A DNA stretch of 64,000 nt from Myxococcota bacterium (GCA_036149055.1 JAYZQJ010000078.1:23519-87518), one strand, 5' to 3'. Shown: positions 18,001 to 24,000, counted from the first letter of the stretch. Made by a program: the numbers.

Positions 18001-21000
18001 CGACAGCTCCGGGGAGCCCCTCCACCGCCGCGGCTGGCGGACCCACGTGGGCCCGGCGCCGCTCCGCGAGGACCTCGCGCGGGCCCTGATCGTGGCCAGC
18101 GGCTGGGAGCCGGGCCAGGCGCTCTGGGATCCGCTCTGCGGCAGCGGCACGATCGCGATCGAGGCGGCGACGATGGCGCGCGGCATGGCGCCGGGCCGCA
18201 TGCGGGGCTTCGACTTCGAGCGCACCCCGCTCCTGCACGCGCCGACCTGGGACGCGGTGAAGGCCGAGGCCCGGGATCGCGTCGGCGAGAGCGCGTCGAG
18301 CTTCGGCGCCAGCGACCGCGACGAGGCGGTGCTGCAGGCGGCCCGCGCCAACGCGGAGCGCGCCGGGGTCGAGATCGCGTTCGAGCGCTCCAGCGTCACC
18401 CAGGCCGTCCGCCCCGAGGGCCCGCGCGGCGCGCTGGTCACCAACCCGCCCTACGGGCATCGCCTCGGCGAGGGCGAGGACCTGCGCCCGCTCTACGACG
18501 CGCTCGGCCGGCGGGCCGAGGAGCTGCCGCCCGGGTGGAGCGCCGCGCTCTACGCGACCGATCGCAAGCTCGGGCACCGCGTGGGGCCCGGGCTCACGAC
18601 CGCCTTCGTCGCCGACGCGGGCGGCCTCAAGGTGCGGGCCCTGGTCAGAAGCCCTGCTGAGAGCCGACCAGCAGACGCACCGAGCTGACCTGCGCGCCCT
18701 GGTCGAAGGGCTCCGATCCGAAGGCGAGCAGGATGTTGAACGACTGGTCGCGATCCCCGATCGAGCGGAGGCCGAAGCCGAAGCTCATCCGGAGTCGCTC
18801 GACGTGGAAGTTCGACAGGCGCTCCTCGAAGACGTTGCCCACCGAGAAGTGCAGCGAGCCGTCCAGCCAGACCCAGACCGGGTAGCGGTACTCGAGGGTC
18901 GCCACGAGCGCGCTCCGGTCGACGAGCTGGTTCTGGATGAAGCCGCTCATGATCATCGGATCGCCGCCGAGGTTGACCTGCTCGAGCCACGGGACCGGCG
19001 CCGTGCCGAGCGGGTCGGCGAAGCGGGCGAGGCCGTAGAGCCCGAAGATCCGGTTGGCGCCGACGTCGAGGAAGCCGCCGATGGCGCCGCCGTACTGGAT
19101 CCAGCGGTTCTCCACCGGTTCGTTCAGGTCGAAGCCGAGCCCCGTGTAGGCCTCGACGCGCACCCCGTGGCCCGCCGCCGGGCGCGGCTCGCGGGTGTCG
19201 ATGACCACGTCGAGGCGCTGACGGTAGGCGGTGTAGCCCTCGAACCCGGGCGGCAGCTCGTACCAGCCCTGATCGTCGACCGCCTGCTGGAGGGTCGGGT
19301 CGCCGCGTCGGCCCCAGTTGTAGCCGTCGGGCGCGAACTGGTTCCAGATCACGCCGGCCCGGAACCGGACCTCGCTCTCGCGCCAGGGCATGAAGCGGAA
19401 GTCGAGCCGCCCCTCGAGGTAGTCGCGGCGGTACCGCGAGCGCTGCGAGCGCTCCGAGTCGTAGCCGGTGCCCTGGTAGACGAAGTCCGGGCGGTGGAGC
19501 GCGTCGAAGGTCAGGCCGAGCTCGGTCTCCTCGCTGAGCCGGAGCCGGTCGCTGATGGTGCCGCGCAGCCAGTCGATCCCGCCGAACGCGGCCGACACGC
19601 GGAAGAAGTTGCCCTCGAGGACGTCCGGCGCGTTGTGCCAGAAGAAGAGCCCGACGCTCGGCTGGAAGCCGAAGTCGAAGAAGGCGGTCGGCACCAGGCC
19701 GGCGCGTCGCTCCTCGAAGGTGAAGAAGTCGATGAGCAGCGCGGTCCAGTTCTCGCGCTCCGCGGTGGTCAGGAACCACCCGAGCGGCTGACGGATCACG
19801 TACTCGAAGACCAGGTGGATCGGGAAGAAGAGGATGCGGGGGACCCAGAGCAGGACCTCGCCCGCGTCCGGCCCCGGCTCGGCGCGCCCGTCGTAGTCGG
19901 GGAGCTCGCGGCGCGCGATGGTGGGCTCGGTCGGCTCGTCGCCCTCCTCCGCTTCGCCCTCCTCCGCTTCGTCCTCGGCCTCGTCGTCCTCGTCGTCAGC
20001 GGCCTCGTCGTCTCCGGTCCGGAGCTCGGCCTGGTCCTCGTCGACCTCGACCGGCGCCTCCTCGACCGGGATCGGCTCCTCGGGGTCCGGGTCGCCGTCG
20101 GCGCCCGAGTCCTCGACCGTCTCGACCGGGAGCGGGATCTCGCCGCCGTCGTCGGCGTCCTGCGCGGCCGCGGAAGTGCTGATGGCGAAGAGCGCCGTGC
20201 TCGCGGCCAGGAGGGCTGCGAGACGGAGGTTGAAGAGCGCGGGCTTCATCGTCCGGGCGCCTCCACGCTGGAGGGCCGCTCGAGCCCGACGAGCTGGATG
20301 TCACCGGGCCCCTTGGCGTACAGGTGGACCCGCGCCGGCAGGGTGGTCTCGCGTCCCGGGGTCTGGGCGATCACGTCCACCACGACGTAGGTCGGGTCGG
20401 CCGCGCTCGCCGCCACGTCGGGCAACGCCGCGCACACGTAGTGCTCGGCGGAGCGCGTCAGGCCGGGGCTCTCGACCGGCTCGAGGGCGTCCCCCGCCCA
20501 CGCCCGCGCCGAGTAGCGCCGGGTCGCGCGGTCACGGATTCCGCTCCATGTGGCCAGGTCCTGCATACAGAGCTCGCTGCCGCCCTCCTCTCGGGGACGT
20601 ACATAGGGCCACGTCAACGGTGACAAGCGCGTCAGGTAGCGCTCGAGGATCCGGTCACGGCGCCCCGCGAGGATGCGCGCCAGCTCCTGCTCGACCACCG
20701 GATCGTGAAAACGTCCCTGCGCCGCGAGCGCCGCCAGGTGAGGGTCTCGGAAGCGCGCGATGATGCGCGCCATCCAGGCCGCGTCGCGCTCGGTGTGGCG
20801 GTCGAACGAGGGGTTGGGGTAGCCCGGGCGCCAGGCGTCGGGCTCGAACCGGAAGACGTCGTAGTAGCCGAGCGTGCGGCCGGCCGGGCCCTCCTGGGCG
20901 ACGAACCAGGGGCGCGCCGCGAGGTCGAGGGTCAGCCAGTCGGTGACCACGTGCTCGAAGTCGAGGTAGCCCGAGTGTCCGAAGCGGCGGACGAGGTACT

Positions 21001-24000
21001 CCCACTCGTGCACGATGCCGAAGCAGTCGCCGAAGTCGATCATGTAGTGGCGCACGTAGCCGTCGTCGGCGCCGTCTTCGGTCATCCACGCGGCGAGCGT
21101 GTTCTCCTGCCGCGAGTCGATGTGGTCGGTCCACGCGGCGAGCACGACCATGCCCCGGGTCTCGCGGCGGTGCTGGTGCGGGACGACGTCGTTCGGGTCG
21201 TCGGACCGGACGCCCTCGTAGCGCCAGGGGCTGATCGGCCGGCCCTCGATGAAGCGGCTGACGCTCGCCCGGTAGCGCCCGTCCGGGAGCTGGAGCGCCG
21301 CCTCCATCACCGCGTCGATGTGATGCTGCTCGAGCGGCTCCTCGACCCCGTTCGTGCGCTCGATGGTGGCCTCGGGATCGACGACGAGGATGTCGCGGTC
21401 GAAGTGCACGACGCGGTTGCAGGGCGTCCAGTAGCCGGCCGCGTGGTAGATGGCCGCGCCGATCGTGTCGGCGGCCCCCGGGCGCCACGGCTGCCGGGTG
21501 CCTTCGGTCTTGAGCAGGTAGCGCTGCCCGTTCGCGTCGCGGATCTGGAAGCCCGGGTTGGCGCCGTCGGGCTTGCCGCCGACGATGGTCCACGGCCCCG
21601 GGATGTCGAAGCGCTCGCCGCACGCCCCCTGGGCGACCTGCTCGGGGCTCATCAGCCGCCGGCTCAGCCGGTTCTGGAACCAGCTCGAGTCGGGGACCTC
21701 GTCGACCGAGTTGACGTTCACCGCCTCGCGCGAGGGCTCGAAGAGCCAGAACTCGCTCACCGGACGGAAGAAGGTGTTGTCCGCCCCGTCCCACATGTAG
21801 GGGGAGTAGAAGGACTCCGGCATCGGCCGGAAGCGGCGCTGATCGGCGTCCTCCCACATCACCTCGGCGAGCGGGTACCGGCGCAGGCCGGTGGTGGCGC
21901 AGCCGGAGAGCGCGGCGATCAGCAGAGCGAGCAGGGGGGCGGGTCGGGTCACGAGATGGCTCCACCTAGCTCCAAACGGGCGCCGGAGCACGCGGGCGGC
22001 GGCGATGGTGAAACATCTCCGGCTCTGCGGTAAAGAGACGCCAGGATCCGGGGGACAAGCATCCGGGGGGGCAAGCGAGGTGACGAGTTGAGCGAGAGCG
22101 ATTCCTTCGGCGAGCTCCGGGCCCACGTCCGGCGCATCGAGACCCTCTCCGGGATCGAGGGCACCCTCGACTGGGACCAGCAGACGATGATGCCGCCCAA
22201 GGCGGCGGCGCTCCGGGGCGAACAGCAGGCCCTCGTCGCGGGGCTGGCGCACGAACACATCTCGGATCCTCGCATCGAAGGCTGGCTGGCGGACCTGGAG
22301 GGCACCGAGGACCCGGTGCGCGCGGCCGCCGAGAGGAACCTGGGGCGGACCTACCGCCGTGAGAAGCGGGTGCCGGCGGATCTGGTCGACGCGCTCGCCC
22401 GCGCCAAGAGCGAGGGCTTCGGCGTCTGGGTCGCCGCCAAGAAGTCCGACGACTGGGCGAGCTTCCAGCCGAAGCTCGAGCAGCTCGTCTCGCTCTCCCG
22501 CCAGCGCGCGGCCGCCATCGACCCCGATCGCCACCCCTACGAGGTGCTGCTCGAGGAGTTCGACCCGGGCACCACGGTGGCCTCGCTCCGCGACACCTTC
22601 GGCCGCCTCCGCGACGGCCTCGTGCCGCTGCTCGAGGCGATCGCCGGCGCCCCCGCGCTGCCCGCGGTGGACCGCACCTTCGACGTCGCCGGGCAGGAGG
22701 CGCTGCACCGCGAGGTCGCGGCCGCGCTCGGCTACGACTTCGAGGCCGGTCGGCTCGACCCCGCCGAGCACCCCTTCACCAGCGGCATGGGCCCCGGCGA
22801 CGTGCGCATCACCACCCGCCTCGCCCCCGACGACTTCTTCGGCGGCCTCGGCAGCACGGTGCACGAGACCGGCCACGCCCTCTACGAGCAGGGCCTGCCC
22901 CACGCGCATCGCGGGACCACGGTGGCGGAGGCGGCGAGCTTCGGGCTGCACGAGTCCCAGTCCCGCTTCTGGGAGAACACCATCGGGCGCTCCGAGGCCT
23001 TCTTCCGCTGGCTCGCCCCGAAGCTGCCGGGCCACTTCGAGGGCGCGACCCCCGACGCGTCGGCGCTCTACCGCGCGGCCAACCGGGTCGAGCCCAGCCT
23101 GATCCGGGTCGAAGCGGACGAGGTCACCTACAACCTGCACATCGTCGTGCGGTTCGAGCTGGAGCTCGCGCTCTTCGAGGGGACGCTCGCGGTCGCCGAC
23201 CTGCCGGCGGCGTGGAACGAGAAGTACGCCGAGTACCTCGGGGTCACCCCGCCCGACGACACCCGCGGCGTGCTCCAGGACGTGCACTGGTCGAGCGGCG
23301 CGTTCGGCTACTTCCCGAGCTACACCCTCGGCAACCTCTACGCCGCGTCGATGGGCCGTGCGATCGAAGCCGCGCTCCCGGATCTCTGGGACCGGGTGGC
23401 CGACGGAGACTTCGCGCCGATCCTCGGCTGGCTCCGCGAGCGCGTCCACGCGCGCGGCCACCTGCTCGAAGCCCCCGAGATCGTGCGGGAAGCGGTCGGA
23501 GAGCGGGACCACGTCGCCGACCTGCTCGGCTACCTGTGGAGCCGCCACGGCGCCCTCTACGGGGTGTCGCGGCCCGAAGGCGTGTAAGCTGACGGCGTGA
23601 AGGGGTGGTGGCGCTGGCTGTCGCCCGACGTGCCGCGCGACGACCCGGAGGAGGCGACGGCGGCGCGGCGGGCGGCGGGGCTGTTCGCGATCGTGACGAT
23701 CGCGTGGCTGCTCTTCGCCGCCCAGTACGCGCTGCAAGGTCGGTGGCTGACCGTCGGGATCGACGTCACCGTCGCCGCCCTCACCGCCCTCGGCCGCAGC
23801 TGGACCCTCCGGGATCCGAGCCTGCGCCGCGTGGCCACCGGCACCGCGCTCGTCACCCTGCTCTCGCTCGTGGGGCTGGTCGGCGCGGCGATCCTCAGCG
23901 GACAGGACCGGGCGATGGCGGTCTGGTACATCGCCATCGCGCCGCTCTTCCTCGGCTACGTGGTCGGCCCGGGGAGCGCGCTCGGGGCGGCGGCGCTCGC

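What a model noticed while it worked through the whole genome (the two positions that open the first line are those of the whole stretch)
18645..21952. Six-paralogue family of secreted Fam20/CtkA-fold atypical kinase lipoproteins, each paired with its own Omp85 barrel
g02659 and five paralogues (g00200, g02235, g03099, g03151, g06401) have no Pfam hit but are predicted exported atypical kinases with Gly loop, beta3 Lys, catalytic D-x-R-x-x-N and D-F-G-D motifs. Four of the six overlap or abut a gene for an Omp85-type barrel, and the pairing holds in relatives, suggesting a dedicated kinase/barrel surface system. The family is separate from g00003.
Evidence so far: No Pfam or PDB sequence hit. 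35-sequence alignment: K89, D241, R243, H264, D268 invariant; K110, N246, D271 nearly so. Model pLDDT 87; top Foldseek hits Fam20C (E 1e-4) and CtkA (TM 0.52 of target). Barrel homologue beside it in 24 of 29 relative loci; g03152 has a Pfam Omp85 hit and the other partners match it at E 1e-34 to 1e-62. 13 of 20 family genomes.
(Added by a program. Inside this text positions count along the whole contig: contig position 23,519 is position 1 of the stretch shown here. "Call 12" and the like, gene names such as g00115 and contig names such as C1 are that model's own, and its searches are not shown. The text may have been shortened before it was handed on; [...] marks where a part breaks off. The agent that wrote the report below was given it as the finding of a first reader that could run no searches.)

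Follow-up and report, generated by a model that had tools for sequence, protein, structure and literature searches.

The report
Periplasmic kinase docked under Omp85 barrel
This marine myxobacterium has six copies of an undescribed kinase-shaped lipoprotein that is predicted to dock on the inner face of its own outer-membrane barrel, and in many relatives the genes sit beside ATP/ADP-carrier genes, which suggests but does not prove ATP-driven phosphorylation in the periplasm.

Summary
Observation confirmed, location revised. Window 20246-21952(-) encodes a lipoprotein with an atypical kinase fold (VIA Z 14.3 CtkA, 13.4 Fam20C; K148, D279xRxxN284, D306FGD intact) plus an FnIII-like domain. It overlaps a 16-strand, POTRA-less Omp85 barrel gene (18645-20249). 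Six paralogues: four have whole barrels, one has none, one has a 117-aa barrel-less 'arm' also kept in a congener. A barrel lies beside the kinase in 64 of 80 and 47 of 51 relative loci; two protein clusters are single-chain fusions. The complex model scores 0.78 against a best control of 0.00 (mark reached by 116 of 157 solved, 2 of 215 mismatched pairs) and puts the kinase on the periplasmic face, against a 'surface' system. Best reading: a periplasmic, barrel-docked kinase fed ATP by an inner-membrane carrier. Activity, substrate, location and transport direction are untested. The scan noted this barrel-kinase-carrier module before in at least five other genomes; nine paper searches found no description.

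The parts
20246..21952 (-). Gene for a 568-aa lipoprotein with an atypical protein-kinase-like domain and a C-terminal FnIII-like domain (P0001)
   Evidence: (pLDDT 95.2, pTM 0.94)
21960..21967 (-). Ribosome-binding-site-like AGGTGGAG, ending 7 nt before the GTG start
   Evidence: sequence
21899..21952 (-). Lipoprotein signal peptide, residues 1-18, lipobox LSGC; Ala at +2
   Evidence: Cys18 in 92 of 95 and 101 of 112 aligned relatives; lipobox in all six paralogues; judged by motif, no predictor run
21707..21883 (-). Kinase N-terminal segment, residues 24-82, the main barrel-contacting surface in the complex model
20630..21622 (-). Kinase-like domain, residues 111-441: Gly-rich loop with K127, beta3 K148, alphaC D/E162
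   Evidence: (VIA Z 14.3 CtkA, rmsd 3.9, 225 aligned); motif roles inferred from spacing and secondary structure
21182..21202 (-). DDPNDVV motif, residues 251-257 (D252 112 of 112), contacts the barrel's RxxPDYDGR arm in the model; followed by invariant R262, R263, R266
21101..21118 (-). Catalytic loop D279-S-R281-Q-E-N284 (D-x-[RK]-x-x-N)
21026..21037 (-). Metal-binding D306-F-G-D309 motif
20279..20629 (-). C-terminal FnIII/Ig-like beta-sandwich, residues 442-558, with conserved Cys462 and Cys507
   Evidence: (Z about 7 to FnIII domains, in the range of common folds)
18645..20249 (-). Gene for a 534-aa POTRA-less Omp85-superfamily outer-membrane barrel (P0002), overlapping the kinase stop by ATGA
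   Evidence: (Pfam Omp85 in 36 of 65 family members)
20163..20249 (-). Sec signal peptide of the barrel protein, about residues 1-29 (AxA-type end)
   Evidence: sequence; judged by eye
19926..20162 (-). Acidic low-complexity linker, residues 30-108, variable in length among relatives
19722..19925 (-). Kinase-binding arm: RxxPDYDGR motif plus amphipathic helix hairpin (residues 109-176), in place of POTRA domains
   Evidence: kept alone as a 117-aa gene beside the C69 paralogue and in congener G438
18660..19703 (-). 16-strand beta-barrel, residues 183-530, long loop 6 with degenerate [ML][RP]GF motif, C-terminal Phe
   Evidence: pLDDT 92.4; Z 22.5 Sam50, 21.9 BamA, 21.3 TamA

Best explanation
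A two-protein outer-membrane enzyme with an inner-membrane energy supply. Shown by computation: the lipoprotein has an intact kinase-like active site; the partner is an Omp85-type barrel whose POTRA domains are replaced by a conserved arm and amphipathic helix hairpin; the two genes are inherited as a unit and sometimes fused; ATP/ADP-carrier (NTT/TLC) genes are strongly linked in relatives. [quoted passage not shown] Inferred: the barrel positions or activates the kinase rather than exporting it; the NTT swaps cytoplasmic ATP for periplasmic ADP; the kinase phosphorylates an envelope substrate at or passing the barrel. A membrane lipid or lipid-linked glycan is my first guess (PlpD precedent, PI4K-like fold, PAP2 phosphatase neighbours), a protein or peptide second. 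In this genome the six paralogues are not linked to a carrier and would use one of three NTT genes elsewhere. My odds by step: active phosphotransferase 0.8, physical complex 0.85, periplasmic 0.75, NTT supplies the ATP 0.5.
For: Fold and motifs. Barrel. Linkage: barrel beside kinase in 64 of 80 loci, 50 of 57 with both flanks over 2 kb; 47 of 51 loci within 1.5 kb in an evenly drawn phylum sample, and all 34 kinase genomes carry a strong barrel hit. Pair trees correlate, r 0.91 against at most 0.36 in 2000 shuffles, and paralogous pairs within L008 and L010 sort with their partners. Fusions P0150 and P0290, 62% identical, the second with 4 members on 6 contigs. Complex: ipSAE 0.78, best control 0.00; mark reached by 116 of 157 solved and 2 of 215 mismatched pairs; runs agree in at least 96% of contacts, partner pLDDT at least 87. 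Barrel-side contacts are more conserved than the rest (0.63 vs 0.49, 0 of 10000 permutations) and lie on the arm and periplasmic turns only; the helix face away from the kinase is hydrophobic, 1.48 vs -0.06. Arm-only gene with the same stop in two species. NTT: Pfam TLC in 26 of 28 neighbours tested, profile hits solved ATP/ADP carriers 9j3n and 9j3j (E 2.6e-36, 1.7e-26); in 29 of 80 loci and within 10 kb of 24 of 51 loci against 0.46 expected, in many gene orders; 32 of 34 kinase genomes have an NTT. This genome's single-domain NTT is 54-55% identical to NTTs directly upstream of kinases in L040 and L046. The same NTT group elsewhere adjoins signal-peptide-bearing PPDK_N proteins or small kinase-like proteins in 15 of 40 loci. 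PAP2 neighbours in 9 of 80 loci. PlpD keeps its enzyme domain in the periplasm (PMC11116518).
Against: No activity, substrate, localisation or transport direction was measured. No NTT lies beside any of the six copies in this genome, and 51 of 80 relative loci show none within the flank held. NTTs are common: 133 of 301 phylum genomes have one, only 34 besides G000 have the kinase, and 25 of 40 strong NTTs without this kinase had no evident exported ATP-using neighbour. These NTTs score far under the TIGR00769 cut-off; characterised NTTs mostly import, some carry NAD or other nucleotides (PMC5381601). Kinase-side contacts are no more conserved than the rest of the kinase (0.46 vs 0.46, p 0.47). 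Five strong barrels have no kinase within about 5 kb and some kinases have no barrel (C4 here; L040-L042, L046, L061, L072, L076). Tree congruence also follows from simple co-inheritance. Related genomes are not independent. The arm-only gene is less constrained than an intact arm (dN/dS 0.49 vs 0.17 on 58 codons). A model can show a pre-export state.
Confidence: 0.5

Rival explanations
1. Surface kinase: the barrel flips or secretes its partner lipoprotein to the cell surface, as Slam or two-partner systems do, where it phosphorylates matrix, kin or prey targets with ATP from lysed cells or leaked through the barrel.
For: One-to-one gene pairing of a barrel with a lipoprotein; nearest folds include secreted kinases CtkA, Fam20C and CotH; Omp85/TpsB members do translocate proteins (PMC4104836); noNterm barrels of Leptospira lie beside lipoprotein genes and a translocase role was raised there (PMC11358297 passages); nanomolar extracellular ATP exists (10.64898/2026.03.22.713542 passages).
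Against: All modelled contacts are periplasmic, with a large confident interface to the folded protein; no POTRA domain; the fusions place the kinase ahead of strand 1, as in PlpD whose enzyme stays periplasmic (PMC11116518); one paralogue keeps the arm without a barrel in two species; inner-membrane carriers are linked.
Confidence: 0.17
2. Nucleotide scavenging or sensing: the barrel admits nucleotides from prey or seawater, the kinase-fold protein binds or converts them in the periplasm (sensor, nucleotide kinase, or other chemistry such as AMPylation), and the NTT imports them; NTT-HEAT and cNMP-binding neighbours relay the signal.
For: Characterised NTTs mainly import (PMC5381601); NTT-HEAT with cNMP-binding genes recur at these loci; an invariant Arg cluster R262/R263/R266 could bind a polyanion; kinase folds are known to be reused for other reactions (own knowledge: SelO, SidJ).
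Against: The D-x-[RK]-x-x-N and DFG-like motifs of ordinary phosphotransfer are intact; the barrel has long loops 4 and 6 like lidded Omp85 barrels; six divergent paralogues fit several substrates better than one uptake route; PAP2 phosphatases nearby suggest a reversible mark.
Confidence: 0.2
3. Accessory assembly machine: the barrel is a specialised BamA/TamA-like insertase or lipid conduit and the kinase-fold lipoprotein an ATPase-type chaperone (as COQ8/UbiB act on lipids) rather than a kinase.
For: Barrel fold closest to Sam50, BamA and TamA; lipoprotein docked on the periplasmic face as BAM lipoproteins are (own knowledge); COQ8 described as an ATPase chaperone (PMC13418538, search listing only).
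Against: Lid-lock degenerate: Arg of the loop-6 motif in 30 of 65, the Asp of FxDxG replaced by S, A or E in most; a separate BamA-like gene exists (C95); no POTRA; an arm-only partner survives; patchy presence, 18 of 32 family genomes.
Confidence: 0.1

Closest known systems
PlpD / patatin-like Omp85 proteins (PMC11116518; abstract and Discussion read)
   Same: An enzyme held on the periplasmic side of a 16-strand Omp85 barrel, proposed to act on inner-leaflet lipids; once taken for a secretion system.
   Different: Here the enzyme has a kinase fold and needs ATP, is usually a separate lipoprotein, the barrel has no POTRA, and ATP/ADP-carrier genes are linked.
'noNterm' and 'Metallo' Omp85 subfamilies (PMC4104836, PMC11358297; passages read)
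   Same: Omp85 barrel without POTRA domains, function unknown, some next to lipoprotein genes.
   Different: This barrel carries a conserved arm and helix hairpin; no DUF5982 hit in 65 members; the word 'kinase' does not occur in either paper's main text.
Fam20C/Fam20B secretory-pathway kinases, CtkA, PI4K type II, CotH, actin-fragmin kinase
   Same: Atypical kinase fold, VIA Z 11.5-14.3 over 225-257 residues; Fam20 and CotH work outside the cytosol (own knowledge).
   Different: 8-12% identity, no Pfam or sequence hit; catalytic loop spaced D-x-[RK]-x-x-N; lipid anchor, FnIII-like tail and barrel partner.
NTT/TLC nucleotide carriers of free-living bacteria, incl. NTT-HEAT(-cNBD) (PMC5381601; main text read)
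   Same: The linked carriers hit PF03219 and solved plastid and chlamydial ATP/ADP carriers; NTT-HEAT with adjacent cNMP-binding genes recur.
   Different: That paper gives no function for them in free-living bacteria, and the main text I read names no kinase or barrel neighbour; characterised members mostly import.
Lig E periplasm-targeted ATP-dependent ligases (10.64898/2026.03.22.713542; passages read)
   Same: An exported enzyme that needs ATP outside the cytoplasm.
   Different: Proposed there to use leaked extracellular ATP; no carrier or barrel partner in the passages seen.
Slam / type XI lipoprotein surface translocation (recalled; named in PMC11358297)
   Same: Barrel gene beside the gene of its lipoprotein partner.
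   Different: Slam is not an Omp85 barrel (recalled); the model here shows a stable periplasmic complex.

Membership tests
Protein-kinase-like superfamily (atypical branch) | Bilobed kinase fold | tested here: met
   VIA Z 14.3 CtkA, 13.4 Fam20C, 12.8 PI4KII-alpha, 12.1 CotH; top 14 rows all kinase folds
Protein-kinase-like superfamily (atypical branch) | beta3 Lys, alphaC acid, catalytic Asp and Asn, metal-binding Asp | tested here: met
   K148 105, D/E162 95, D279 109, N284 105, D306 110 of 112; present in all six paralogues; roles assigned from spacing and secondary structure, not from a residue-level superposition
Protein-kinase-like superfamily (atypical branch) | ATP-dependent phosphotransfer | not testable with these tools
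   needs an enzyme assay
Fam20C family (PF06702) / CtkA family | Sequence match to the family profile or to solved members | tested here: not met
   no Pfam hit at E<=1, no PDB sequence hit, 9-12% identity in structural alignments
Omp85 superfamily | 16-strand barrel of Omp85 fold | tested here: met
   16 strands; Z 22.5-18.5 to Sam50, BamA, TamA, FhaC, CdiB against 14.8 or less for other barrels; PF01103 in 36 of 65 members
BamA/TamA/TpsB translocase or insertase subfamilies | One or more POTRA domains | tested here: not met
   only a linker, an arm and three helices precede strand 1
BamA/TamA/TpsB translocase or insertase subfamilies | Lid-lock: RG[FY] in loop 6 and FxDxG in strand 13 | tested here: not met
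   G328 59 and F329 53 of 65, but Arg 30 of 65; Asp position is S 24, A 21, E 8; window copy reads MSGF and FSVG
noNterm Omp85 (DUF5982 subset) | DUF5982 at the first strands | tested here: inconclusive
   no such Pfam family among hits of 65 members; I did not check that this Pfam copy holds the model
Metallo-Omp85 | PF00149 phosphoesterase domain fused to the barrel | tested here: not met
   absent from the window proteins and both fusions
NTT/TLC carriers (neighbour genes in relatives; three unlinked genes here) | PF03219 match and similarity to solved ATP/ADP carriers | tested here: met
   26 of 28 tested; own C283 gene 62.9 bits; 9j3n E 2.6e-36
Canonical ATP/ADP translocases (TIGR00769) | Score above the curated cut-off of 387 bits | tested here: not met
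   23-57 bits in 11 of 12, none in one
NTT/TLC carriers | ATP/ADP exchange, substrate and direction | not testable with these tools
   needs a transport assay
Bacterial lipoproteins | Signal peptide with lipobox Cys | tested here: met
   LSGC18; Cys in 101 of 112; all six paralogues; motif only

The most novel reading that the evidence does not exclude
Free-living diderm bacteria run a periplasmic ATP economy: NTT carriers export ATP in exchange for ADP to feed a family of barrel-docked lipoprotein kinases (and, in other lineages, exported dikinase-like enzymes), with PAP2 phosphatases reversing the mark. This would be a bacterial counterpart of Golgi Fam20 phosphorylation, and would give both POTRA-less Omp85 barrels and the NTTs of free-living bacteria a function. 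The barrel's arm would be a separable activator, as the arm-only gene suggests.
Probability: 0.4. Interest if true: 0.93.

Novelty: categorically new. Interest (0 to 1): 0.8.

Why it matters
The periplasm is usually treated as lacking usable ATP, so an intact kinase predicted to sit there, genetically tied to ATP/ADP carriers, challenges a working rule of envelope biology. It makes three open questions testable with one operon: what NTT carriers do in free-living bacteria, what POTRA-less Omp85 barrels do, and whether bacteria phosphorylate envelope components outside the cytoplasm with ATP. The family is large (3613 clusters at 50% identity), unannotated, and present in a cultured organism (Sandaracinus amylolyticus, P0062). 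The natural fusions and the arm-only partner give ready single-chain and soluble constructs. Even if the ATP-export step fails, a kinase-Omp85 complex is an undescribed envelope enzyme.

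Tried and rejected
Pfam, NCBIfam and PDB sequence searches for the kinase: nothing. Plasmid and viral collections: no relative. ESM Atlas: nearest clusters unnamed; named ones at 0.84 or less, leads only. Search for long fusions: P0282 and P0272 look like frameshift or read-through joins and were not counted; P0165, P0192, P0142, P0167 likewise; the 903-aa barrel-kinase frame in L184 lacks the end of the barrel and the start of the kinase and was set aside as a deletion or misassembly. Lengths 995-1075 were outside both kinase-query searches; the fusions came and a junction search. 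A metagenome scan for more fusion loci gave two unfused, distant pairs only, so the fusions' DNA context was not seen. My recalled lead that Bacteroidetes Metallo-Omp85 proteins hold a related kinase-like middle domain could not be tested: no such protein was retrieved; the weak long hits were another family without barrel. An exported metallophosphoesterase, named in earlier scan notes, was not found in my 80 loci: a motif scan gave three hits that look cytoplasmic. RNA: contigs of three seawater runs of one study bridge the kinase/barrel junction, but flanking genes are covered too and DNA carry-over is not excluded, so expression and co-transcription are not shown. No sigma-70 promoter or terminator match. 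One dN/dS control (antiporter) misaligned and was discarded. A whole-genome low-threshold profile scan timed out. No model coordinates were available, so active-site orientation was not measured. Paper searches found no description of the pair; the library lacks most subscription journals, and the supplements of the 2026 kinase-like survey (10.64898/2026.09.18.752743), which list 20 families, could not be seen and may bear on novelty.

Full report
Observation. The window is G000:C78:23519-87518. Two minus-strand genes fill the finding: a 568-aa protein at 20246-21952 with a GTG start, a GGAG 7 nt upstream and a lipobox LSGC18, and a 534-aa protein at 18645-20249 that overlaps its stop by ATGA. 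Opposite-strand genes bound the pair: an M32 carboxypeptidase upstream and an RlmL-like methyltransferase downstream. The genome holds exactly six paralogues of the first protein, 40-58% identical to the window copy; four abut a whole copy of the second, C69 has a 117-aa N-terminal piece, C4 has none. Neither window protein hits Pfam or NCBIfam. Named relatives are Sandaracinaceae and other Myxococcota; the DNA is held by seawater runs. The family is large: 3613 clusters at 50% identity with E<=0.001, 338 matching stretches in GTDB genomes, of which the tool kept the best 80, and 18 of 32 family genomes, including unpublished G449.

The kinase. The model from 95 sequences has pLDDT 95.2. Foldseek gives Fam20C at E 1.4e-4 and CtkA at TM 0.50-0.51 of target. 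VIA-align over 48161 chains ranks CtkA (Z 14.3, rmsd 3.9, 225 aligned), Fam20C 13.4, PI4KII-alpha 12.8, Hydra Fam20 12.6, CotH 12.1 and actin-fragmin kinase 11.5; the top 14 rows are all kinase folds, at 8-14% identity, so the fold is secure and the subfamily is not. Residues 442-558 resemble FnIII domains at Z about 7. In 112 diverse relatives K127 is kept in 100, K148 in 105, D or E162 in 95, D279 in 109, R or K281 in 100, N284 in 105, H302 in 111 and D306 in 110; D309 only in 46. All six paralogues keep lipobox and motifs. The roles of these residues are inferred from spacing and secondary structure.

The barrel. The model has 16 strands preceded by an extended arm and three helices, and no POTRA. 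It matches Sam50 (Z 22.5), BamA (21.9) and TamA (21.3), with non-Omp85 barrels at 14.8 or less; 36 of 65 family members hit Pfam Omp85. The lid-lock motif described for Omp85 insertases (PMC11358297, passages) is degenerate: Arg in 30 of 65, and the strand-13 Asp mostly S, A or E. A separate BamA-like gene exists on C95.

The pairing. A barrel lies within the flank held in 64 of 80 GTDB loci, and 50 of 57 with both flanks over 2 kb. In an evenly drawn phylum sample of 300 genomes, 47 of 51 kinase loci have one within 1.5 kb; all 34 kinase genomes have a strong barrel hit and 34 of 36 genomes with such a hit (listed rows down to E 2e-17) have the kinase. Both gene orders occur, barrel first in 60 and kinase first in 19 of 79 split pairs; the trees of 81 pairs correlate at r 0.91 (shuffles at most 0.36), and the two pairs in each of L008 and L010 sort with their partners. 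This shows co-inheritance, not by itself contact. Two clusters, P0150 (1000 aa) and P0290 (1005 aa; 4 members, 6 contigs), 62% identical, are single chains of lipobox, kinase, FnIII-like domain and barrel with a shared junction. Against strict pairing: five strong barrels have no kinase within about 5 kb, and several kinases lack a barrel.

The complex. The predicted complex scores ipSAE 0.78, best of three controls 0.00; the mark was reached by 116 of 157 solved and 2 of 215 mismatched pairs, counts that hold only roughly with my own alignments; runs agree in at least 96% of contacts and the partner's pLDDT is at least 87. I found no solved complex of this kind in the fold searches. The barrel's contacts are its RxxPDYDGR arm, one face of the helix hairpin, and residues at the short turns after strands 10 and 12 and on strand 14; by Omp85 topology these are periplasmic, and no outer loop is touched. 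They are more conserved than the rest of the barrel (0.63 vs 0.49), though barrel strands vary anyway; the kinase-side contacts are not more conserved than the rest of the kinase (0.46 vs 0.46), but include D252 (112 of 112) and N254. The other face of the hairpin is hydrophobic, as for a helix lying on the inner leaflet. The kinase also touches the barrel with residues 317-343, just after the DFG-like motif, which would let the barrel gate or activate it (inference). The C69 'truncated' gene encodes signal peptide, linker, arm and hairpin and stops just before strand 1. Congener G438 has the same gene, in frame, with the same stop, at 79% DNA identity over the locus. Its arm has dN/dS 0.49 on 58 codons against 0.17 for the intact C78 arm, while its kinase is also faster (0.29 vs 0.14): constraint is suggested, not proven. 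It keeps exactly the part predicted to bind the kinase and cannot translocate anything.

A third component. Clustering the neighbours of the 80 loci gave, after kinase and barrel, one dominant group in 30 loci. Of its 41 ORFs I tested 28; 26 hit Pfam TLC ATP/ADP transporter, all far under the TIGR00769 cut-off (12 tested), and their profile matches the solved carriers 9j3n and 9j3j. Single-domain and NTT-HEAT forms both occur, the latter with cNMP-binding genes, as described by Major et al. (PMC5381601, main text read), who give no function for them in free-living bacteria. A profile finds an NTT in 29 of 80 loci, 18 of 37 with full flanks. In the phylum sample, 24 of 51 kinase loci (21 of 34 genomes) have one within 10 kb against 0.46 expected; this is a floor, as 85 NTT matches were not listed, and kin are not independent. 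Gene orders differ widely (N-K-B, B-K-N, N-B-K, N-K without barrel, convergent). This genome has three NTT genes, none beside a paralogue; the single-domain one on C283 is 54-55% identical to those directly upstream of kinases in L040 and L046. NTTs are more widespread than the kinase (133 of 301 genomes). I fetched 40 of the strongest NTT hits that were not beside this kinase: 14 adjoin a PPDK_N protein with two or one beta-lactamase-like genes, and 13 of those 14 show a signal-peptide-like start by eye (one is cut by the contig end); three adjoin a small kinase-like protein with such a start, two of them among the 14; 25 show nothing of the kind. Those 14 come from a few related families. 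PAP2 genes lie in 9 of the 80 kinase loci (five checked in Pfam).

How it most likely works. The kinase is exported by Sec, lipidated and sorted to the outer membrane (Ala at +2; the sorting rule is from E. coli, own knowledge). It clamps onto the arm of its barrel on the periplasmic side. An inner-membrane NTT exchanges cytoplasmic ATP for the ADP it makes. It phosphorylates an envelope substrate at the inner leaflet or at the barrel mouth; I favour a lipid or lipid-linked glycan over a protein, weakly, from the PlpD precedent (PMC11116518, abstract and Discussion), the PI4K-like fold and the PAP2 neighbours. Fold, motifs, linkage and fusions are shown; the complex and its side are predicted; ATP export, activity and substrate are inferred. 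I put the whole at 0.5, surface export at 0.17, nucleotide scavenging or sensing at 0.2, an assembly ATPase at 0.1. RNA contigs bridge the gene junction but also cover the flanks, so expression is not shown.

Known systems and novelty. PlpD is the nearest working analogy; noNterm and Metallo Omp85 groups (PMC4104836, PMC11358297, passages) the nearest barrels; Lig E (10.64898/2026.03.22.713542, passages) a precedent for an exported ATP user. The kinase belongs to the kinase-like superfamily but fails membership of Fam20C or CtkA by sequence; the barrel is Omp85 but fails BamA/TamA/TpsB membership (no POTRA, degenerate lid-lock). Nine paper searches found no account of a kinase-Omp85 pair; the 2026 kinase-like survey (10.64898/2026.09.18.752743, abstract and passages) does not mention Omp85 in its main text, and its supplements were closed. 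After my own NTT result I found eight earlier notes of this scan on the same kind of module in at least five other genomes; they are unchecked and not independent support, and look-ups by this sequence and place returned none. What this genome adds is the six-fold expansion unlinked from the carrier, the natural fusions, and the arm-only partner. I class the system as categorically new and score interest 0.8.

Noticed in passing
G000:C69:6101-6451(-) (L001) and G438 (L226:3042-3452): Barrel-less 117-aa gene (signal peptide, arm, helix hairpin) beside a kinase paralogue, with the same stop in two species; possibly a stand-alone activator or anchor.
   Followed up: partly
L156, L158, L160-L162, L164, L165, L167, L169, L171-L175: A second conserved NTT neighbourhood in genomes without this kinase: NTT, one or two beta-lactamase-like genes, a PPDK_N/PEP-utiliser protein with a signal-peptide-like start, often NTT-HEAT; an exported ATP-using enzyme of another fold.
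   Followed up: partly
L146:9091-10083, L167:8845-9780, L173:6510-7427: Small (about 310-330 aa) kinase-like proteins with signal-peptide-like starts and no Pfam hit, directly beside NTT genes.
   Followed up: no
P0273-P0281: About 1160-aa proteins (one named Acidobacteriota) that fuse this kinase and FnIII-like part to a 580-aa region without Pfam hit, not a barrel by Pfam.
   Followed up: no
P0283; L118-L121: A distant family of about 1200-aa proteins with signal-peptide-like starts and kinase motifs (D-x-K-x-x-x-N-like loop, HDLG), no Pfam hit, two in tandem in L119.
   Followed up: no
L008:9308-11274, L010, L013, L016, L054: Downstream of the barrel in some Sandaracinaceae-like loci: a DUF2252 (APH-like) protein with a lipoprotein-like start (3 of 80 loci) and a DUF2807 GIN-domain lipoprotein (4 of 80).
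   Followed up: partly
L008, L010, L048, L051, L190: Loci with two kinase/barrel pairs side by side, three of them (L008, L010, L048) arranged around a single NTT gene.
   Followed up: partly
L176-L180: Five strong family barrels without a kinase within about 5 kb; two of those genomes (G337, G289) have a barrel-less kinase elsewhere, so pairing in trans is possible; L176 keeps two NTT genes.
   Followed up: partly
G000 C220:30148, C120:39133, C185:10938: Three further Omp85-domain genes besides the BamA-like C95 gene, not examined.
   Followed up: no
window 12370-15833(+): TonB-dependent-receptor-like gene with an N-terminal TonB-like segment, followed by a lipoprotein-like gene; identified by eye only.
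   Followed up: no
window 25676-26497(-): Secreted-looking 273-aa protein with an H-x(6)-D motif and late His like M15 D-Ala-D-Ala peptidases (recalled motif), with paired Cys.
   Followed up: no
G000:C14 about 77200-82800: The shorter NTT-HEAT gene of this genome lies among lipoprotein-like genes (beta-propeller and repeat types) and a Ser/Thr kinase gene.
   Followed up: no
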